Positions 9,521 to 18,636 are shown, numbered from the stretch's first letter. The stretch is DNA of 64,000 bases from Candidatus Dietzia intestinigallinarum (GCA_019119875.1 DWWG01000012.1:25214-89213); one strand, 5' to 3'. The notes: generated by a model not told the origin, from the letters alone. Made by a program: numbers and translations.

Positions 9521-10594
9521 ATGACGTCCTCGCTGTGCACCCGCTCCGACGGTGACCCCCGCCGGCTACCCGGCTTCCGCCGCACCTATGCGCCCGGGCG
9601 CCTCACGCTCGGACTCGGCTTCCCTCTGCGCACCCGGGGCGACGCAGCGGCCGCCGATGAACTGGACGCGCAGGTGGCGGCGGCCCGCGCCGCCGAGGAC
9701 GCGGATTTCGCCGCCCTCTACGCCCGTGACATCCCCCTGCGCGTGCCGTCCTTCGGCGACGTCGGTCAGGTCTTCGACCCGTGGACCCACCTGAGCTACA
9801 TGGCGGCGCACACCTCGCGCATCGCCCTGGGGACGGCCGGCATCGTGCTACCGGTGCGGCATCCACTACACGTGGCCAAGGCCGCCGCCGGCCTCGACAG
9901 GATCACGGGTGGACGTCTCCTGCTGGGCCTGGCGTCCGGCGACCGCCCTGAGGAGTTCCGGGCGTTCGGTCTCGAACAGGGCGAACGCGGCGAGAGGTTC
10001 CGCGAGAACCTTCACGTCATGCGGCACGCCCTGACCACCGAGATGCGCGGCGTCCGTTGGTCCGGCGGCTGGATGCACAGCGCCGACGTGGTGCCCAAGC
10101 CCCTCGCCTCGTCGGTGCCGATCCTGATGGTGGGGTCGTGCCAGCAGAGCATCTCCTACCTCGCCGAGCACGGGGACGGGTGGATGACCTACCCGCGTGA
10201 CTTCGACGCGCAACGCCGCACCGTTGCCCGGTGGAGGGAGCTGACGGCGGCATTCGCGCCGTTCGCCCAATCGTTGCAGATCGACCTGTCCGAGAACCCG
10301 GGGGAGACCGCGTCCCCGATCAGCTTCGGATTCCGCATCGGACGCAACGCGTTGATCGAGCACCTGGGCGACCTGCAGGGAATCGGGGTCAACCACGTGC
10401 TCCTGGGCATCGGCGCGAGCACCCGTCCGGTCCGCGAGGTGATCGACGAGCTGGCCGAGCACGTCGTGCCCCATTTCCGCGCACTGGACGGCGAGGGGCG
10501 CCACCCCGTGCGGGGGTTGGAGCCACCGGGGCGGCACGCGAGTGAGCAGGGCCAGATGGCCGACTGGCGACGTGGAGACACCCGCAGTCCCTAG
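9521..10594 (+). CDS. LLM-class (luciferase-like) oxidoreductase, BA3436-type
   Basis: LYARDIPL...[48 protein letters not shown]. Confidence 0.85.
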
Positions 10595-14059: not shown

Positions 14060-14089
14060 TAGACAGAACGGTCTGTTCGTGGCTACGGT
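14060..14089 (+). promoter_or_regulatory. sigma70-type promoter (-35 TAGACA, 18 nt, -10 TACGGT) overlapped by McbR-like operator TAGAC-N6-GTCTG
   Basis: TAGACAGAACGGTCTG at 14060-14075, 9/10 match to C. glutamicum McbR consensus TAGAC-N6-GTCTA. Confidence 0.6.
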
Positions 14090-14121: not shown

Positions 14122-14664
14122 ATGACCCTCTTCCTGTACGAGACGATCCCCTCTCAGGAGCAGCAGGCCGATCCTTCTGCGCTCATCGACGCCATCGGCG
14201 CCGCGCTGACGGGTGCGGGTGCCGAGGTCATCGAGACCCAGATCACCAAGGGCGCCGCCCGGATCTTCACCATCGTCGAACTGGCCGACGGCCCGGACGG
14301 CGCCTGCGCCACCGAGGCACCGGCCCTGGACGCCGCAGAGCTGGGCGCAGCTGAGGTCACCGAGCCCGCGCAGGTCCGCCTGGTGGGAACCGACCTCGAG
14401 ACCATCAAGGCCGCCCGCCCCGAGGCCGGCTACCTGGTGGAGTGGGATATCCCGGCCGAGATCGACATGGACACCTACCTCACGCGCAAGAAGGAGAAGT
14501 CCCCGAAGTACGCCGAGATCCCCGAGGTCTCGTTCCTGCGCACCTATGTCCGCGAGGACACGGACAAGTGCCTGTGCTTCTACAACGCTCCCGACACCGA
14601 CGCGGTGGTCCGGGCGCGTGAGATCGTGTCCACTCCCATCTCGCGTCTGCACGAGCTGGCATGA
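14122..14664 (+). CDS. DUF4242-domain protein (about 180 aa, N-terminal extra domain)
   Basis: RBS AAAGGA; C-terminal YLVEWDIP...VSFLRTYVREDTDKCLCFYNAPDTDAVVRAR is a DUF4242/SCO4226-like pattern. Confidence 0.8.
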   Translation: MTLFLYETIPSQEQQADPSALIDAIGAALTGAGAEVIETQITKGAARIFTIVELADGPDGACATEAPALDAAELGAAEVTEPAQVRLVGTDLETIKAARPEAGYLVEWDIPAEIDMDTYLTRKKEKSPKYAEIPEVSFLRTYVREDTDKCLCFYNAPDTDAVVRAREIVSTPISRLHELA

Positions 14665-15797
14665 GCGCGCCCACGGCCAGCACTCTCACCCCGGATCTCG
14701 GCGCCCCGCGGGCGCGTCTTATCGCCGGCGATCTCGGTTCCGTCGACGCGGCGGAGCTTCGCGCGGTGATCGACTCGATCGCCGCGCGGGCCTCCGCCCT
14801 GGACCGCGCCGACGCGGACCTGCGGGAGGACATCTCCGCACTCGCCGGTCTCGGTCTCTTCGACGTGGACCGTACGCCGGTCCCCGTCGCCGCGACGATC
14901 ATCGAAGCCGTGGCGACGGAGAGTCTGGCCGTGGCGTTCGGCGCCTGGGCGCAGCGGATGACCGCGGCCTACCTGCGGCACGCCGCCGACCGGTCCGAGG
15001 CAGCCCAGCGGAGCTACCGGGCGGTCGCCGACGGCACCCGACCGGGCGTGACCGGCATGGCCGCCGCGCAGCGGCAGGTCGTCGGACTCGGGAACGTACC
15101 CATCACGGCCACCCCGGTCGAGCGCGGCTACCAGATCGACGGGCCGATCGCGTGGGCGTCCAACGTGTACCCGGACAGCACCATCGTGCTGGCGGCCAAC
15201 ACCGCGGACGGCCGCAGCCTCGTCCTGACCTTCGAGGCCTCGACCCCCGGCGTCGAGATCCGTTCCGCTCCGGACCTTCTGGCGCTCAACGCGACCGCCT
15301 CCACGATGATCGGACTCGACGGCGTCGTGGTTCCTCACGAGCAGGTGCTGGGGGAGGATCTGGGGGACTTCCTGTCCGGCGTGCGACCGCAGTTCCTCGT
15401 CCTGCAGGCCGCCTTCTGCTCCGGCGTGGGTGCACGCTCGCTCACCGAGGCCGCCGGACGACTCGAGGGGCTCGGTGCCTTCTACTCGGACGAGCACGCC
15501 GCGCTGTCCGAACGGCATGACCACATGCACTCCGAGCTCCATCGACTCGCCGCGGCGCCGGCGGAGACGGATGCGGAGACGGAGGCTATGCTGACCGACT
15601 TGCTCCTCCTGCGCCTCGACGGCGCGGAGATCGCCCCCGCCGCGACACGGCTCGAGGCGGTCCTGTGCGGCGGCATGGGGTACGCGCAGGGGGCACCCGC
15701 CAACCGCCGTATGCGCGAGGCGGCCTTTCTCCCGGTGCAGTCCCCGTCGCAGTCGCAGCTGCGCTGGGAGCTGGACCGACTCGGGGTGGAGGCGTGA
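14661..15797 (+). CDS. acyl-CoA dehydrogenase-fold flavoprotein (non-canonical)
   Basis: ATGA overlap; GYQIDGPIAWASN, ALNATAS, GGMGY, RRMREA ACAD-fold motifs. Confidence 0.82.
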   Translation: MSAPTASTLTPDLGAPRARLIAGDLGSVDAAELRAVIDSIAARASALDRADADLREDISALAGLGLFDVDRTPVPVAATIIEAVATESLAVAFGAWAQRMTAAYLRHAADRSEAAQRSYRAVADGTRPGVTGMAAAQRQVVGLGNVPITATPVERGYQIDGPIAWASNVYPDSTIVLAANTADGRSLVLTFEASTPGVEIRSAPDLLALNATASTMIGLDGVVVPHEQVLGEDLGDFLSGVRPQFLVLQAAFCSGVGARSLTEAAGRLEGLGAFYSDEHAALSERHDHMHSELHRLAAAPAETDAETEAMLTDLLLLRLDGAEIAPAATRLEAVLCGGMGYAQGAPANRRMREAAFLPVQSPSQSQLRWELDRLGVEA

Positions 15798-16543
15798 GCT
15801 CGGCGGTCCTCGAGCGTCCGGTTGCCGTCAGTGTCACCGGTCTGCAGCACCGCCTCCCCGGGGGACGGACACTGTTCGACGATCTCGAGCTGCGGGTCCG
15901 GGAGGGGGAGTCGCTCGTGCTCCTGGGCCCGTCGGGAGTGGGTAAGTCGACGCTGTTGCGACTGCTGGCGGGACTCGAGCACCCCGCCGGTGGAGAGCTG
16001 CGGATGGGCTCACGTCCCACGGGCGGAGGCGGTGGGCACTCGTACGCGGTCGTGTTCCAGAAGCCCCTGCTCTACCCGTGGCTGTCGGTGCGCGAGAACG
16101 TCGCCCTGGGCGGCCGGTTCCGCGCACTTCGCGGCCGGGTGGACTCCTCGTACGTCGACGAGTTGCTCACCCATTTCGGGATCTCGGACCTGGCCGACGC
16201 CCGGTCCGACCAGATCTCGGGTGGCCAGGCCCAGCGGGTCGCGGTGGTCCGCGCAGCGGCGACGCGTCCGGAGATCCTTCTCCTCGACGAGCCCTTCAGT
16301 GCACTGGACCCGGTGACGCGCGCGGACTCACAGCGATGGTTGGTCGGCGTGACCGCCGATCTCGGCGTCACGACGATAATGGTGACCCACGACGTCGACG
16401 AGGCTCTGGTGGTGGGCTCCCGCATCGCGTTGCTCGGTTCGTCCGGCCGCGTTCAGCAGGAGTGGGCCAACCCCTCCCACGGCACCGGCGATTCGGATCC
16501 GGTCCTCCGAGAGGACATCCTGGCCGCTTACCGAACGGCCTGA
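15794..16543 (+). CDS. NitT/TauT-family ABC transporter ATP-binding protein
   Basis: GTGA overlap; GPSGVGKST, VFQKPLLYPWLSVRENV, ISGGQAQR, LLLDEPFSALD, VTHD. Confidence 0.93.
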   Translation: MSSAVLERPVAVSVTGLQHRLPGGRTLFDDLELRVREGESLVLLGPSGVGKSTLLRLLAGLEHPAGGELRMGSRPTGGGGGHSYAVVFQKPLLYPWLSVRENVALGGRFRALRGRVDSSYVDELLTHFGISDLADARSDQISGGQAQRVAVVRAAATRPEILLLDEPFSALDPVTRADSQRWLVGVTADLGVTTIMVTHDVDEALVVGSRIALLGSSGRVQQEWANPSHGTGDSDPVLREDILAAYRTA

Positions 16544-16551
16544 GCGCGGCT

Positions 16552-17739
16552 GTGAAGAAGGATCCGGGGGCGCGCGGCCCCGTACTCGACCGACGCTCGC
16601 TACTGCGTACCGGCGGCGCACTCGCGGTGGGGGCCGGAGCCCTCGGCGGCGCGGCGACGCTGGGCAACCTCGTCTCCGCGGCGACCGCCCCGCGTGGGAC
16701 CGCGACGGAGGAACTGCGGATCGGCTACCTGCCGATCACCGACGCCGCGCCGCTTCTCGTCGCACACGGCGACGGCTACTTCGAGCAGCAGAAGCTCATC
16801 GTCGGACGACCGGTGCTCTTCCGCTCCTGGTCGTCACTCATGGAGGCCTTCCTCACCGAGCAGGTGGACCTCATCCACCTGCTGATGCCGTCGGCAGTGC
16901 AGCTGCGTTACGTCCTCGGCGCGGACGTGAAGGTGGTGAGCTGGAACCACACCGGCGGCGGCGCGATCACCGTCGCTCCGCACATCAACGAGGTCTCTGA
17001 GCTCGCCGGCACGCAGGTCGCGATCCCGGGCTGGTGGTCGATCCACAACATGCTCCTGCAGCGGGTGCTGCGTTCGAACGGACTCACGCCGGTCGCCCGG
17101 AGGTCCCCGAGCCGATCCGAGGGCACCGTCGAACTGGTCGTCATGGGCCCGGCGGACATGATCCCGGCGTTGGCCACCGGGTCGATCTCCGCGTTCACCG
17201 TCGCCGACCCCTTCAACGCCGGAGCCGTCGCCCGGGGCGTCGGTTCCCTGCACATGCTCCTGGACGAGGTGTGGCGCGACCACGCCTGTTGCGTGACGGT
17301 CGTGCAGGAGCGTCTCGTCGACGAACGCCCGGACACGGTCCAGGCGTTGGTCGACTCGGCGGTCGCCGCGCAGTTGGGGATCCGGGCCGATCGCTCGGCT
17401 GCCGCCGCGATCCTGTCCGGTCACGGCTACCTCCCGCAGCCCCCGGCGGCCGTGGAGGTCGCCATGGCCGGGACGGTCGCCGATCCCGCGGGAGGCCCCG
17501 ACCGGCCCCGGATCGACTTTCACCCGTACCCGTTCCCGAGCTTCACCGAGGAACTGGTCCGCCAGATGCGCCAGACGGTCGTCGACGGTGAGACCCGATT
17601 CCTGGACGGTCTCGACCCGGCGACGGTTCACCGCGAACTCGTCGACGACCGGTTCGTCCGGGCCTCGATCGAACGACACGGCGGTCCGGCCGCCCTCGGA
17701 CTCCCCACCTCGCTCACCCGACACGAACGGCTGATCTAG
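16552..17739 (+). CDS. NitT/TauT (NrtA/CmpA-like) ABC substrate-binding protein with twin-arginine signal
   Basis: DRRSLLR Tat motif plus hydrophobic stretch; LRIGYLPITDAAPL, WRDHACCV; start codon uncertain (GTG 16552). Confidence 0.88.
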   Translation: MKKDPGARGPVLDRRSLLRTGGALAVGAGALGGAATLGNLVSAATAPRGTATEELRIGYLPITDAAPLLVAHGDGYFEQQKLIVGRPVLFRSWSSLMEAFLTEQVDLIHLLMPSAVQLRYVLGADVKVVSWNHTGGGAITVAPHINEVSELAGTQVAIPGWWSIHNMLLQRVLRSNGLTPVARRSPSRSEGTVELVVMGPADMIPALATGSISAFTVADPFNAGAVARGVGSLHMLLDEVWRDHACCVTVVQERLVDERPDTVQALVDSAVAAQLGIRADRSAAAAILSGHGYLPQPPAAVEVAMAGTVADPAGGPDRPRIDFHPYPFPSFTEELVRQMRQTVVDGETRFLDGLDPATVHRELVDDRFVRASIERHGGPAALGLPTSLTRHERLI

Positions 17740-18636
17740 ATGACTGGTACGCACGCGCACTCCCCCTCGGGGGACGGTCCCGGCACGGCTGAGCTCTCCA
17801 CGCCCGCCCCCGTGTCGTCGGTCACCGGCCCGGCGTCGCCCTCCCGCGGTGTGCGGTTCCGGAACCGCGGCGCCGTTTCCGGATCGAGCCCGGTGGCCCG
17901 ATGGGGTGCAGGTCTACTCGGTCTGCTGCTCGGGCTCGGGGTGTGGGCTGTGCTGACGTCCGGACTGGTGACCGACGACCCGGTCATCACCGGGATGTCG
18001 CCCGTGAAGACCTGGTCGGGGTTCGCTGATCTCCTCGACCGCGGGGTCCTGCTCTCGGATGCGGCGGTGAGTCTCTACCGACTGGTGTCCGGGCTCGCGG
18101 TCGCCTCGCTGCTCGGGATCCCGCTCGGTCTCTGGCTCGGACTGCGCAGGCGCGCCGAGGCGGTGGCGGGCCCCCTCGTTCAGTTTCTGCGGATGGTCTC
18201 CCCGCTGTCGTGGGCCCCCGTGGCGATCGCGGTGTTCGGTATCGGCAGCGAGCCGGTGATCTTCCTCGTGGCGGCAGCCGCGGTCTGGCCGATCATGCTC
18301 TCGACCTCGTCCGGCGTGCACGCGGTGGATCCGGGCTTTCTCGACGTGGCCCGGACCATGGGGGCGAACGGCTGGGAGCGACTGACCCGGGCCGTGATCC
18401 CCGCGGTGCGGCCCTCGATCCTCGGCGGCATCCGGCTGGCGCTCGGCACCGCCTGGATCGTGCTGGTGCCCGCCGAGATGCTCGGCGTGCGGTCGGGACT
18501 CGGATATCAGATCCTCAACGCCCGCGACCAGCTCGCATACGACCAGGTGATGGCGGTGATCCTCGTGATCGGCGTGCTCGGGTTCGCGCTCGATTCACTG
18601 TCCCGACTGCTGCTTCGCGGCGGCGCCGCGCGGTGA
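17740..18636 (+). CDS. NitT/TauT-family ABC permease
   Basis: SPLSWAPVAI, EAA-type loop ARTMGA, WIVLVPAEMLG. Confidence 0.92.
   Translation: MTGTHAHSPSGDGPGTAELSTPAPVSSVTGPASPSRGVRFRNRGAVSGSSPVARWGAGLLGLLLGLGVWAVLTSGLVTDDPVITGMSPVKTWSGFADLLDRGVLLSDAAVSLYRLVSGLAVASLLGIPLGLWLGLRRRAEAVAGPLVQFLRMVSPLSWAPVAIAVFGIGSEPVIFLVAAAAVWPIMLSTSSGVHAVDPGFLDVARTMGANGWERLTRAVIPAVRPSILGGIRLALGTAWIVLVPAEMLGVRSGLGYQILNARDQLAYDQVMAVILVIGVLGFALDSLSRLLLRGGAAR

What the first reader, a model, noticed from the sequence alone, without database searches (positions are those of the whole stretch)
14661..15797. ACAD-fold protein lacks the canonical dehydrogenase motifs
Seen: where true ACADs have TEPxxGSD this protein reads TGMAAAQRQ, and where they have the catalytic-Glu segment IYEGT it reads PVQSPSQSQ (alignment by eye). 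Inference: not a fatty acyl-CoA dehydrogenase; more likely a flavin-dependent oxygenase or novel oxidoreductase. No flavin reductase gene is present in the operon.
Basis: partly seen in the sequence, partly recalled or inferred. Interest (0 to 1): 0.55.

Follow-up and report, generated by a model that had tools for sequence, protein, structure and literature searches.

The report
Sulfur-regulated ACAD-fold flavoprotein, not a dehydrogenase
This Dietzia gene encodes a protein with the acyl-CoA dehydrogenase fold but neither catalytic glutamate; it belongs to an unstudied enzyme family found in several phyla that always sits beside a small cysteine protein, nearly always beside an anion importer, and probably frees sulfur from an imported compound.

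Summary
ORF 14661-15797 (+, 378 aa) folds as an acyl-CoA dehydrogenase (AlphaFold pLDDT 91; Z about 37 to SCAD, IVD and MCAD). TGMAAAQRQ (aa 131-139) replaces TEPxxGSD and PVQSPSQSQ (aa 358-366) replaces the IYEGT segment.

- **Catalytic positions:** the MCAD-type Glu position is Ser361 and the IVD/LCAD-type position is Phe245.
- **Flavin-ring contacts:** these are kept (Thr131, Trp165-x-Ser167-Asn168).
- **Family models:** no Pfam ACAD model matches.
- **Phylogeny:** the protein falls in a 100/100-supported clade, apart from the genome's own ACADs and its HsaA/DszC-type enzymes.

It is gene 2 of a tightly overlapping five-gene operon: tandem DUF4242 protein with an invariant KCLC, this enzyme, then an ABC ATPase, a Tat-exported NrtA/SsuA-like binding protein and a permease. 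The operon lies behind a palindrome that elsewhere in this genome marks sulfite reductase, rhodaneses, TauE/CysQ and a ROK regulator followed by a flavin reductase.

The enzyme-plus-importer pairing recurs in Proteobacteria, Deinococcus and the sulfur region of Synechococcus plasmid pANL. There the small partner is swapped among DUF4242, AhpD-like and OsmC proteins, each with a conserved Cys.

Best reading: a sulfur-scavenging flavoenzyme, not an acyl-CoA dehydrogenase; substrate unknown. Thiocyanate is an attractive minority guess. Related modules were noted before in this scan on other genomes.

The parts
14060..14075 (.). Palindromic operator TAGACAGAACGGTCTG (McbR-type TAGAC-N6-GTCTA) upstream of the operon
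   Evidence: It is the only place in the window that fits the pattern, reported on both strands. The same motif lies upstream of the orthologous cassette in 53 of 73 loci, against 8.5% of random segments. In this genome the strong copies sit at sulfite reductase, two rhodaneses, TauE/CysQ-like, DUF4395 and ROK-regulator genes, and one at an IclR-family regulator with no evident sulfur link.
14122..14664 (+). Tandem DUF4242 (SCO4226-like) protein, 180 aa, with invariant K-C-L-C motif; the small Cys partner of the enzyme
   Evidence: Pfam PF14026 covers the C-terminal half. The start ATG at 14122 follows a GAAAGGA ribosome site. Conservation reaches the Synechococcus pANL homolog, with KCLC invariant. 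The model has pLDDT 88.6 and shows two ferredoxin-like halves. Weak fold matches (TM about 0.5) are to tandem alpha+beta-barrel proteins such as HemQ/Cld and HmoB.
14661..15797 (+). ACAD-fold flavoprotein-like enzyme (378 aa) lacking both catalytic Glu positions: the finding
15051..15077 (+). TGMAAAQRQ (aa 131-139), in place of ACAD T-E-P-x-x-G-S-D; Thr131 retained, Arg138 is K/R in most of the family
   Evidence: Alignments; conservation; coordinates.
15153..15167 (+). WASNV (aa 165-169), the retained W-x-(S/T)-N flavin-ring contact motif
   Evidence: Trp165 and Ser167 are invariant and Asn168 nearly so among the close homologs. Across the distant set Asn168 is invariant, while position 165 is Trp or Phe and position 167 is Ser or Thr. 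The motif aligns with F/W-I-T-N of the own-genome ACADs.
15384..15425 (+). Helix G segment RPQFLVLQAAFCSG (aa 242-255): Phe245 at the IVD/LCAD Glu position; Gln249 invariant in the family
15732..15758 (+). PVQSPSQSQ (aa 358-366), in place of the ACAD I-Y-E-G-T segment; Ser361 at the MCAD Glu376 position, Pro362 invariant
15794..16543 (+). ABC transporter ATP-binding subunit (GTG start overlapping the enzyme's TGA as GTGA)
   Evidence: Pfam ABC_tran; NitT/TauT-type NCBIfam hits; start read from the sequence.
16552..17739 (+). Substrate-binding protein with twin-arginine signal (DRRSLL), NMT1_2 / NrtA-CmpA-SsuA superfamily
   Evidence: Pfam PF13379 at 5.5e-40. TIGR01728 SsuA_fam matches below its cut-off. 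The nearest solved relatives are an uncharacterised binding protein (3un6), then NrtA/CmpA-type proteins and domains. It is 45-47% identical to the binding proteins of the cassettes in Roseomonas, Agrobacterium, Synechococcus pANL, Deinococcus and Variovorax. The start is read.
17740..18636 (+). ABC transporter permease
   Evidence: Pfam BPD_transp_1; NitT/TauT-type permease hits below cut-off.

Best explanation
The gene encodes a member of a distinct, so far uncharacterised clade of the acyl-CoA dehydrogenase superfamily that is not an acyl-CoA dehydrogenase.

It keeps the three-domain fold and the residues that hold the flavin ring. It has replaced both possible catalytic glutamates, part of the FAD-ADP contacts and the substrate-facing residues with its own conserved set: Phe93, Trp96, Gln249, Ser/Thr361-Pro362.

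In this Dietzia it is the enzyme of a five-gene, translationally coupled sulfur-starvation operon. A Tat-exported binding protein and an ABC importer bring in a small sulfur-containing anion. The flavoprotein performs redox chemistry on it, together with the reactive-cysteine partner encoded just upstream (tandem DUF4242, KCLC). The partner takes over or detoxifies a reactive sulfur or peroxide intermediate, and the sulfur enters assimilation.

Shown here: fold, motif replacements, clade, operon structure, operator and its regulon, and conservation of the enzyme-partner-importer module across phyla. Inferred: flavin binding, the redox role, the role of the partner and the nature of the substrate.
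For: Fold and active site:
- The ACAD fold is supported at Z about 37.
- Thr131 and Trp165/Ser167/Asn168 are retained, while Ser361 and Phe245 occupy the two Glu positions.
- Family-specific invariant residues persist down to 22-30% identity.
- The clade has 100/100 support against the genome's own ACADs and its HsaA/DszC-type proteins.

Operon:
- The ATGA and GTGA junctions indicate translational coupling.
- The five-gene order is conserved in about 70 of 79 genome loci across Dietzia, Rhodococcus, Nocardia, Gordonia, Mycobacterium, Mycobacteroides, Tomitella and Actinacidiphila.

Sulfur link:
- The palindrome lies upstream in 53 of 73 loci against 8.5% background.
- The same palindrome in this genome sits at sulfite reductase, two rhodaneses, TauE plus a CysQ-like gene, and a ROK regulator followed by a PF01613 flavin reductase.
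- A divergent TetR gene lies next to the cassette in other genera. It is 30-37% identical over most of its length to the TetR genes beside the Methylocystis and Rhodobacteraceae cassettes.
- The same five-gene cassette, DUF4242 included, lies on Synechococcus elongatus pANL next to cysK and other genes of its sulfur region. Papers describe this region as sulfur-regulated and largely captured by the CysR iModulon (PMC11420160, PMC8049743). No paper read here names the cassette genes themselves as sulfur-regulated.

Partner:
- In 14 of 14 annotated contexts examined, a small protein lies directly upstream: DUF4242, AhpD-like CMD with GCxFCVAGH, or OsmC with ALGxC. Each has a conserved Cys.
- Rhodanese follows the enzyme in two roseobacters.
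- Fused forms occur in metagenomes: DUF4242 plus enzyme, and enzyme plus ABC ATPase.
Against: - There is no biochemical datum for any member of the clade. I found no paper on it.
- Flavin binding is inferred from three or four residues only. The R-x-x-F-G and G-S-D FAD contacts are changed.
- The cassette proteins are not depleted in Cys and Met, apart from the ATPase.
- Three Dietzia species (loci L008, L009, L014) keep an intact enzyme gene although the transporter genes are gone. In two of them a ~45-codon DUF4242 remnant is readable. A fourth, truncated locus (L016) also lacks the transporter genes downstream.
- Neisseria has the enzyme and partner without a transporter.
- A sister subclade travels with cyanate uptake and cyanase genes, a nitrogen rather than sulfur theme.
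- One of the genome's palindrome copies sits at an IclR-family regulator with no evident sulfur link.
- The regulator of the palindrome in Dietzia is only assumed; the best TetR homolog, on contig C59, is 37-43% identical.
Confidence: 0.6

Rival explanations
1. It is the oxygenase half of a two-component, reduced-flavin- and O2-dependent monooxygenase of the DszC/SfnB/MsuC kind. It acts on an imported organosulfonate, sulfinate or sulfone. FMNH2 comes from a reductase encoded elsewhere, and the Cys partner merely mops up peroxide from uncoupled flavin hydroperoxide.
For: - The Ser/Thr that hydrogen-bonds flavin N5 is kept (Ser167), and the FAD-ADP contacts are weakened.
- A weak SfnB hit appears in 17 of 23 family members.
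- A PF01613 flavin reductase lies downstream of a gene that carries the same operator.
- OsmC and AhpD-like partners belong to peroxidase families.
- TIGR01728 SsuA_fam is the best NCBIfam hit of the binding protein.
- From my own knowledge, not checked here: thiol peroxidases are known sulfate-starvation proteins in Gram-negative bacteria.
Against: - The family profile is much closer to true ACADs than to DszC (4e-16 against 1e-6).
- Ordinary ACADs of this genome hit the SfnB model better than this protein does.
- PF08028 does not match it.
- In the tree the family is separate from the genome's two type-2 enzymes.
- Apart from one uncharacterised binding protein (3un6), the binding protein's solved relatives are NrtA/CmpA-type and none is SsuA or TauA.
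- The strict adjacency, translational coupling and occasional fusion of the partner argue for more than a generic antioxidant.
Confidence: 0.2
2. It still works on a CoA or carrier-protein thioester. It could be a non-redox desulfinase like 3-sulfinopropionyl-CoA desulfinase, or a dehydrogenase with a relocated base.
For: - The closest solved relatives by sequence and fold are CoA- or carrier-dependent ACADs, including ColB1 (Z 37.3) and the 3-sulfinopropionyl-CoA desulfinase 5ahs (Z 34.6).
- 12 of 23 family members give weak hits to NF042439.
- The desulfinase is a precedent for a sulfur-releasing ACAD-fold enzyme without the catalytic Glu (my own knowledge of that enzyme).
Against: - No CoA ligase, CoA transferase or carrier-protein gene lies in or beside the cassette in any of the roughly 90 contexts examined.
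- No acidic residue is conserved at either base position.
- The Pfam ACAD C-terminal and middle-domain models fail on this protein.
Confidence: 0.08
3. The enzyme and partner form a defence module against a thiol-reactive oxidant, such as an organic hydroperoxide or hypothiocyanite, rather than a nutrient-acquisition enzyme. The link to the transporter would then be secondary.
For: - The partners belong to the OsmC and AhpD peroxidase families.
- The pair occurs without a transporter in Neisseria gonorrhoeae and on plasmids of mucosa- or host-associated Moraxella, Roseomonas and Bartonella.
Against: - 13 of 14 contexts include a binding-protein-dependent importer, and importers serve uptake.
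- The binding protein is better conserved across phyla (45-47%) than the enzyme (about 30%).
- The operator is shared with sulfur-assimilation genes.
- The Synechococcus copy lies in the sulfur region of pANL.
Confidence: 0.07

Closest known systems
Short-chain, isovaleryl- and medium-chain acyl-CoA dehydrogenases (e.g. PDB 1jqi, 1ivh, 3mdd)
   Same: Same three-domain fold: Z 35-37, rmsd about 2.9 A over about 345 residues. These are the best sequence-profile matches among solved structures, at 4e-16. The Thr of TEP, the W-x-(S/T)-N motif, the G-G-x-G-Y motif and the R-x-x-R-(D/E)-A motif are conserved.
   Different: The catalytic Glu is absent at both known positions (Ser361, Phe245). G-S-D and R-x-x-F-G are replaced. 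No Pfam ACAD model matches. It forms a separate clade. Its context is an importer and a Cys protein, not beta-oxidation.
Group D flavin monooxygenases of sulfur scavenging: DszC, SfnB, MsuC (ACAD fold, FMNH2-dependent)
   Same: ACAD fold without a catalytic Glu. Expression is under sulfur-limitation control. The reductase is encoded elsewhere. A Ser/Thr sits at the flavin N5 position.
   Different: Sequence relation is only remote: DszC 1e-6, and SfnB 25 bits against a cut-off of 431. PF08028 is absent. It is not sister to the genome's type-2 enzymes. It has an obligatory Cys-protein neighbour, which those systems lack in the descriptions I know.
3-Sulfinopropionyl-CoA desulfinase of Advenella mimigardefordensis (PDB 5ahs)
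   Same: An ACAD-fold enzyme that has lost the catalytic Glu and releases inorganic sulfur (my own knowledge of the enzyme). The structural match is Z 34.6, and 12 of 23 family members give weak NF042439 hits.
   Different: That enzyme needs a CoA thioester made by a ligase or transferase, and none is linked here. Identity is only 13%. Its active-site Arg was not examined here.
Thiocyanate dehydrogenase (TcDH) of Thioalkalivibrio: a functional analogue only, under the novel reading
   Same: It would catalyse the same overall step, thiocyanate to cyanate plus sulfur. PMC5744179 names the cyanate pathway as one of only two recognised routes and reports it in only 10 Thioalkalivibrio strains.
   Different: By my own knowledge TcDH is an unrelated copper enzyme; the paper read here does not describe its cofactor. 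No sequence or fold relation is expected, and the activity of the present family is untested.
McbR regulon of Corynebacterium glutamicum (TetR-type sulfur repressor, operator TAGAC-N6-GTCTA): the regulatory context
   Same: The operator has the same half-sites. It sits at sulfur-assimilation genes genome-wide. A TetR-family gene lies beside the cassette in relatives.
   Different: Binding and the identity of the regulator in Dietzia are not shown. The consensus here is longer (TAGACAGAnCGGTCTG, up to a 20-base palindrome).

Membership tests
Acyl-CoA dehydrogenase (EC 1.3.8.-; Pfam PF02771/PF02770/PF00441) | Three-domain ACAD fold (N-terminal helical, middle beta, C-terminal helical) | tested here: met
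   Model pLDDT 91.2. Foldseek E 1e-13 and TM 0.73-0.79. VIA-align Z 35-37.
Acyl-CoA dehydrogenase (EC 1.3.8.-; Pfam PF02771/PF02770/PF00441) | Catalytic glutamate, either MCAD-type (Y-E-G-T loop) or IVD/LCAD-type (helix G) | tested here: not met
   Ser361 and Phe245 occupy these positions in HMMER and MAFFT alignments. Family-wide the first position is S/T and the second is nearly invariant F.
Acyl-CoA dehydrogenase (EC 1.3.8.-; Pfam PF02771/PF02770/PF00441) | Match to the Pfam ACAD domain models above gathering score | tested here: not met
   No ACAD model matches even at E <= 1. Genome scans with PF00441 and PF08028 do not report this locus. Some distant family members match PF02771 only.
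Acyl-CoA dehydrogenase (EC 1.3.8.-; Pfam PF02771/PF02770/PF00441) | Full set of FAD contacts (T-E-P...G-S-D, W-I-T-N, R-x-x-F-G, Q-x-x-G-G-x-G-Y, T/Q after the catalytic Glu) | tested here: inconclusive
   Thr131, Trp165/Ser167/Asn168 and G-G-x-G-Y are kept. G-S-D, R-x-x-F-G and the Y-E-G-T segment are replaced. No coordinates or ligand modelling were available.
Acyl-CoA dehydrogenase (EC 1.3.8.-; Pfam PF02771/PF02770/PF00441) | Acyl-CoA oxidation with ETF or ferricenium as acceptor | not testable with these tools
   Needs an enzyme assay.
Group D two-component flavin monooxygenases (DszC/SfnB/HsaA; PF08028, TIGR04022) | Match to the family models | tested here: not met
   PF08028 is absent. 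TIGR04022 scores 25 bits against a cut-off of 430.9, lower than ordinary ACADs of the same genome score on that model.
Group D two-component flavin monooxygenases (DszC/SfnB/HsaA; PF08028, TIGR04022) | Phylogenetic grouping with known type-2 enzymes | tested here: not met
   In the IQ-TREE tree the genome's two type-2 proteins fall on the ACAD side of the midpoint-rooted tree, separated from this family by a 100/100 branch. Long branches meet here, so the deep order is unsure.
Group D two-component flavin monooxygenases (DszC/SfnB/HsaA; PF08028, TIGR04022) | Dedicated NAD(P)H:flavin reductase partner | tested here: inconclusive
   None lies in the operon. One PF01613 gene lies 64 nt downstream of the ROK gene that carries the same operator. 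Sister-subclade operons carry an FAD/rubredoxin oxidoreductase.
3-Sulfinopropionyl-CoA desulfinase (NF042439) | Model match, and linkage to CoA activation of the substrate | tested here: not met
   P0001 gives no hit to NF042439 at E <= 1, and distant members give weak hits only. No CoA ligase or transferase lies in any examined context.
Uncharacterised 'S/T-P' ACAD-like clade with Cys partner and NitT/TauT importer (defined here) | Invariant Phe93, Trp96, Asn168, Gln249, Pro362 and the (Q/V/I/L)-(S/T)-P segment in place of Y-E-G | tested here: met
Uncharacterised 'S/T-P' ACAD-like clade with Cys partner and NitT/TauT importer (defined here) | Small Cys-bearing protein encoded immediately upstream, with an ABC importer adjacent | tested here: met
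   The window has DUF4242 with KCLC at 14122-14664 and the ABC genes at 15794-18636. The same architecture holds in about 70 of 79 actinobacterial loci and in 13 of 14 other contexts.

The most novel reading that the evidence does not exclude
The clade is the missing flavin-dependent enzyme by which ordinary heterotrophs and cyanobacteria split thiocyanate into cyanate and assimilable sulfur. The NrtA/CynA-like ABC system would import SCN-. The ACAD-fold flavoprotein would oxidise it. The sulfur atom would leave as a persulfide on the Cys partner (DUF4242, OsmC or AhpD-like), passing to rhodanese where one is present. Cyanate would go to cyanase where that gene is linked.

This single idea ties together several observations:
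- The operon belongs to a sulfur regulon here, and its copy lies in the sulfur region of pANL.
- The binding protein has mainly nitrate/bicarbonate-type solved relatives.
- Rhodanese lies directly downstream in roseobacters.
- The sister subclade sits in one array with a CmpA/NrtA-type ABC system and cynS in Acetobacter, Burkholderia and Moraxella.

Against it: this Dietzia genome, 98.65% complete, shows no cyanase. The cynS-linked enzymes are only 22-25% identical to this one. Nothing has been assayed. My recollection that CysR-dependent thiocyanate use was reported for Synechococcus PCC 7942 could not be checked, because the papers are not held.
Probability: 0.25. Interest if true: 0.85.

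Novelty: new variant of a known kind. Interest (0 to 1): 0.63.

Why it matters
The ACAD superfamily is a textbook case of one fold reused for other chemistry, as in DszC, SfnB, nitroalkane oxidase and the sulfinyl-CoA desulfinase. This would add a further branch of at least about 500 sequence clusters, found in Actinobacteria, Proteobacteria, Deinococcus and cyanobacteria.

The branch has its own active-site signature. It also has a feature I have not seen described for the other branches: an obligatory small cysteine protein that has been replaced at least twice by unrelated folds.

Genome annotation currently calls all of these 'acyl-CoA dehydrogenase family protein', which misleads metabolic models of lipid-degrading Mycobacteriales. 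Because the module sits in sulfur regulons with a dedicated importer, it marks a sulfur source that these bacteria can use and that is not yet assigned.

If that source is thiocyanate, the family would supply the unknown enzyme of the cyanate route of thiocyanate breakdown outside Thioalkalivibrio. Model organisms to test this already exist, notably the pANL plasmid of Synechococcus elongatus PCC 7942.

Tried and rejected
- **The look-up of encoding contigs:** Context came instead from the search for related loci and the plasmid collection.
- **Metagenome scan for distant relatives:** failed twice because no stretch of the alignment was conserved enough.
- **SfnB as the best NCBIfam hit:** rejected as evidence of kinship, because ordinary ACADs of this genome score far better on that model.
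- **PhoU, SDR, IlvD and LLM neighbours:** this is Dietzia-only synteny and not part of the module. My first clustering joined PhoU with the TetR genes of other genera through antisense ORFs. Pfam showed that they are different proteins.
- **Gordonia alkanivorans 135:** I asked whether its sulfur-induced 'acyl-CoA dehydrogenase' QGP89059 is this family. It is 407 aa, and its qPCR primer translates to K-Y-Y-S-T-G, which I recall as typical of DszC-type enzymes. I judged that it is not this family.
- **Sulfur-sparing composition:** Cys plus Met content is not depleted, except in the ATPase.
- **Literature:** searches for DUF4242, Sao genes, McbR with ACAD, pANL with ACAD, thiocyanate with ACAD/OsmC/cyanase, and thiocyanate with CysR gave nothing on this family.
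- **Papers not held:** the pANL sequence paper and the two 1991/1995 J Bacteriol papers.
- **Cyanase in the own genome:** none found with PF02560 or TIGR00673.
- **Fold of the DUF4242 partner:** it gives only generic tandem ferredoxin-like matches at TM about 0.5. I draw no function from it.
- **Residue-level structural superposition:** not possible, because the tools return no coordinates. The catalytic positions therefore rest on sequence and profile alignments.
Full report
**1. The observation**

The window is 70.6% G+C. By its closest homologs it comes from a Dietzia; the protein is 92% identical to that of D. aurantiaca.

The ORF 14661-15797 (+) has the third-position G+C of real genes here, 0.88. 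Its ATG overlaps the stop of the upstream gene as ATGA. Its stop overlaps the GTG of the next gene as GTGA.

The 378-aa product matches no Pfam family, not even at E <= 1 for the ACAD domains. Its best NCBIfam hit is a 25-bit match to SfnB, whose cut-off is 431 bits.

Against solved structures it aligns weakly but over its whole length with ACADs: 2dvl at 5e-6 and rat SCAD at 8e-5. A profile of 34 homologs raises this to 4e-16 for SCAD, 1e-15 for a mycobacterial ACAD and about 7e-15 for IVD. DszC reaches only about 1e-6.

An AlphaFold2 model built on that alignment is confident, with pLDDT 91.2 and pTM 0.90. It superposes on ACADs with Foldseek E about 1e-13 and VIA-align Z 35-37, at rmsd 2.7-3.1 A over about 345 residues. 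The fold claim therefore holds.

**2. The motifs**

TGMAAAQRQ is residues 131-139 and PVQSPSQSQ is residues 358-366.

In the HMMER alignments to SCAD, the query stops at Gln360 opposite Tyr367 of the I-Y-E-G-T segment. The catalytic Glu368 of SCAD therefore falls on Ser361.

- Three of them (C198, C186, C134) carry the MCAD-type E-G-T. That Glu column is Ser361 in the query.
- Two (C98, C206a) have G-G-T instead and carry the helix-G Glu of the IVD/LCAD type (P-S-E-R, G-Q-E-R). That column is Phe245 in the query.

The T-E-P-G-x-G-S-D segment aligns with T-G-M-A-A-A-Q-R-Q. Its Thr is kept (Thr131, invariant among the close homologs). The F/W-I-T-N segment aligns with W-A-S-N: Trp165 and Ser167 are invariant and Asn168 nearly so among the close homologs, and Asn168 is invariant across the distant set. 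From established knowledge of MCAD, these are the residues around the isoalloxazine ring (Thr136, Trp166, Thr168).

The G-S-D and R-x-x-F-G segments, which in ACADs hold the phosphate and ADP part of FAD, are replaced. G-G-x-G-Y is kept.

The replacements are conserved, not eroded. Among 34 homologs the segments G-V-T-A-M-A-A-A, G-P-I-x-W-A-S-N-V, R-P-T-F-L-L-L-Q-x-A-F-C-S-G and F-L-P-V-Q-S-P-S-E-G-Q-L-R-W-E-L are nearly fixed.

Among 23 sequences reaching down to 21% identity, the invariant residues are Asp48, Phe93, Trp96, Gly161, Asn168, Gln249, Gly255, Arg318, Gly337, Arg349, Glu353, Phe356, Pro362 and Leu367. The Glu position is always Ser or Thr.

The exhaustive search finds 531 representative clusters, 104 of them below 1e-30.

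**3. A clade of its own**

Scans of the whole genome with PF00441 and PF08028 find 33 and 24 places but not this gene.

The SfnB model hits ordinary ACADs of the genome at up to 1e-27, and this gene at only 1e-5. The SfnB hit therefore says nothing specific.

In a maximum-likelihood tree of 37 proteins, the 29 family members form a clade with 100/100 support. A long branch separates it from the six canonical ACADs and the two HsaA/DszC-type proteins of this genome. The program warns that long branches meet there, so I draw no conclusion about which group is the sister.

**4. The operon**

The upstream gene (14122-14664) encodes a 180-aa protein. Its C-terminal half matches PF14026, the SCO4226-like family also called DUF4242. 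Its N-terminal half has the same beta-alpha-beta-beta-alpha-beta layout in the model, which has pLDDT 88.6.

Downstream follow three transporter genes:
- an ABC ATPase (15794-16543);
- a binding protein (16552-17739) with a twin-arginine signal and a PF13379 domain;
- a permease (17740-18636).

In 79 genome loci holding a relative of the enzyme, the order DUF4242, enzyme, ATPase, binding protein, permease is kept in about 70. These span Dietzia, Rhodococcus, Prescottella, Nocardia, Gordonia, Tomitella, Mycobacterium, Mycolicibacterium, Mycolicibacter, Mycobacteroides and Actinacidiphila.

The other window neighbours (Na/H exchanger, LLM oxidoreductase, IlvD, SDR, PhoU) travel with it only inside Dietzia.

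**5. Regulation points to sulfur**

I tested this myself.

TAGACAGAACGGTCTG at 14060-14075 is the only place in the window that fits TAGAC-N6-GTCTR, reported on both strands. A motif within two mismatches of TAGAC-N6-GTCTA lies upstream of the cassette in 53 of 73 loci, against 8.5% of random 380-nt segments. It usually reads TAGACAGAyCGGTCTG, and in some genera it forms a perfect 20-base palindrome.

In the genera other than Dietzia, a divergent TetR-family gene lies on the other side of the motif.

In the Dietzia genome itself, the strong copies of the motif lie directly upstream of:
- a sulfite/nitrite reductase;
- two rhodanese genes;
- a TauE/SafE gene paired with a CysQ-like phosphatase;
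- a DUF4395 gene;
- a ROK-family regulator;
- an IclR-family regulator, which has no evident sulfur link.

The gene after the ROK regulator is one of only four PF01613 flavin reductases in the genome. The operon therefore belongs to a sulfur-assimilation regulon. A flavin reductase is probably co-regulated with it, although none lies in the operon.

**6. The module outside Actinobacteria**

Distant relatives (22-32% identical) on annotated plasmids and chromids show the same pairing.

| Organism | Partner upstream | Other linked genes |
|---|---|---|
| Roseomonas, Deinococcus, Agrobacterium, Bartonella, Variovorax | carboxymuconolactone-decarboxylase (AhpD-like) | ATPase, binding protein, permease |
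| Methylocystis, two roseobacters, a Corynebacterium occultum plasmid | OsmC | ABC genes alongside |
| Synechococcus elongatus PCC 7942, plasmid pANL | 175-aa DUF4242 | the same five-gene cassette, downstream of catalase-like srpA, a chromate transporter, cysK and a gamma-glutamyltransferase |

Published work describes the pANL region as the plasmid's sulfur-regulated region and places many of its genes in the CysR iModulon (PMC8049743, PMC11420160). No paper I could read names the cassette genes themselves as sulfur-regulated.

The pANL DUF4242 protein aligns end to end with the actinobacterial ones and shares the K-C-L-C motif.

The binding proteins of these cassettes are 45-47% identical to the Dietzia one. 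That is better conserved than the enzymes, at about 30%, and suggests one ligand.

The TetR genes beside the Methylocystis and Rhodobacteraceae cassettes are 30-37% identical, over most of their length, to the actinobacterial ones.

Every partner has a conserved cysteine:
- G-C-x-F-C-V-A-G-H in the AhpD-like partners;
- A-L-G-x-C in the OsmC partners, some of which have no other Cys;
- K-C-L-C in DUF4242.

The partner also changes within Actinobacteria. The C. occultum enzyme, 40% identical to the query, has an OsmC partner.

Metagenomic proteins exist in which DUF4242 is fused to the enzyme, and the enzyme to the ABC ATPase. Given the overlapping stop and start codons, these could also be reading-frame artefacts.

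**7. What it most likely does**

Shown here:
- an ACAD fold that keeps the flavin-ring contacts;
- no base for alpha-proton abstraction;
- a new conserved pocket;
- strict coupling to a reactive-Cys protein and, nearly always, to a binding-protein-dependent importer;
- control by a sulfur operator here, and location in a sulfur region in Synechococcus.

Inferred: the protein binds a flavin and performs redox chemistry on the imported small sulfur compound. The Cys partner receives or quenches a reactive sulfur or peroxide species. I put 0.6 on this general reading.

Within it, two mechanisms compete.
- **Two-component monooxygenase.** This is the classical type, using free FMNH2. It is supported by the co-regulated reductase and the peroxidase-type partners. 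It is weakened by the greater closeness to true ACADs than to DszC, and by the NrtA/CmpA-like rather than SsuA/TauA-like solved relatives of the binding protein.
- **Dehydrogenase-type reaction with sulfur transfer to the partner Cys.** This fits the strict coupling, the fusions and the rhodanese that follows the enzyme in roseobacters.

**8. The thiocyanate idea**

In Acetobacter, Burkholderia sp. PAMC 26561 and Moraxella, a sister subclade lies in one same-strand array. The order is OsmC or AhpD-like protein, enzyme, FAD/rubredoxin oxidoreductase, CmpA/NrtA-type ABC system, then cyanase cynS.

Cyanase, a nitrate/cyanate-type importer, rhodanese and sulfur control have one obvious common denominator: thiocyanate split into cyanate and sulfur. 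PMC5744179 states that only two routes of primary thiocyanate degradation are recognised. It also reports the cyanate route in only 10 strains of Thioalkalivibrio.

Two follow-up notes of this scan on other genomes reached the same idea (e1-5225251, e1-5272101). I had formed it before reading them. They are AI notes and do not count as independent evidence. The paper they cite (PMC6627978) says nothing about such an enzyme.

Against the idea:
- This Dietzia genome (98.65% complete) has no detectable cyanase.
- The cynS-linked enzymes are only 22-25% identical to this one, and their binding proteins only 28-33%.
- My memory of CysR-dependent thiocyanate use in Synechococcus could not be verified.

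I give it 0.25.

**9. Comparison with known families**

The protein works in a setting like DszC, SfnB and MsuC, that is, sulfur scavenging by an ACAD-fold protein without the Glu. It fails their membership tests. It resembles SCAD and IVD most in sequence and fold, but fails the defining catalytic feature of ACADs.

It recalls the 3-sulfinopropionyl-CoA desulfinase in having lost the base in a sulfur context. It lacks any link to CoA activation.

I therefore file it as a new variant within the ACAD superfamily, not as a member of any characterised family. I found no publication on it.

**10. Verdict**

The finding is more interesting than a single odd paralog, because the family is large, spans several phyla, has a replaceable Cys partner and marks an unassigned sulfur source. 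Its mechanism and substrate remain inferred.

Noticed in passing
window 14060-14075; genome contigs C18:9739, C34:4854, C86:16209, C131:12958, C138:9032, C138:15033, C158:2180, C197:9527: About nine copies of the palindrome TAGACAGAnCnGTCTR occur in the genome. They lie at sulfite reductase, two rhodaneses, TauE plus a CysQ-like gene, DUF4395, an IclR regulator and a ROK regulator followed by a flavin reductase. This looks like a compact McbR-like sulfur regulon in Dietzia.
   Followed up: partly
L008:7650-9116, L009:7650-9116, L014:7650-9116 (Dietzia natronolimnaea, Dietzia sp. 2505, Dietzia sp. PP-33): In these Dietzia the ABC genes are gone. In L008 and L009 the DUF4242 gene is reduced to a ~45-codon remnant that joins its first and last parts without the KCLC motif. 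The operator is degenerate in L008 and undetectable in L009 and L014. The ACAD-like ORF is still intact at 372 aa. Either the module is decaying or the enzyme can work alone.
   Followed up: partly
window 15564-15587 (aa 302-309): This strain's protein carries a six-residue insertion, within the repeat-like stretch E-T-D-A-E-T-E-A. The other Dietzia homologs lack it and are 372 aa rather than 378. It lies in a loop between C-terminal helices.
   Followed up: no
window 16552-16680: The binding protein starts at a GTG and has a twin-arginine signal (D-R-R-S-L-L-R-T-G-G-A-L-A-V-G-A). It would therefore be exported folded by Tat, which is unusual for ABC binding proteins in general.
   Followed up: no
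proteins P0219 (532 aa) and P0236 (614 aa) from the representative search: These look like fusions: DUF4242 with the ACAD-like enzyme, and the ACAD-like enzyme with the ABC ATPase. They could be real fusions or read-through artefacts at the 4-nt gene overlaps.
   Followed up: partly
L117:5300-7068 (Neisseria gonorrhoeae chromosome filed as a plasmid record): An AhpD-like CxxC protein and a family member lie next to the D-lactate dehydrogenase gene, with no ABC transporter. This is the only context seen without an importer.
   Followed up: no
L120:6074-7426, L121:6083-7426, L122:6083-7489: In the cynS-linked subclade the enzyme gene overlaps, by 4 nt, a ~450-aa FAD-dependent oxidoreductase gene. 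One record annotates it as rubredoxin. It is a candidate electron partner, absent from the Dietzia operon.
   Followed up: no
window 9521-10594: This is a TIGR03571-family luciferase-like oxidoreductase, above its cut-off at 389 bits. It lies 4 kb upstream, is syntenic only within Dietzia, and is not part of the conserved module.
   Followed up: partly
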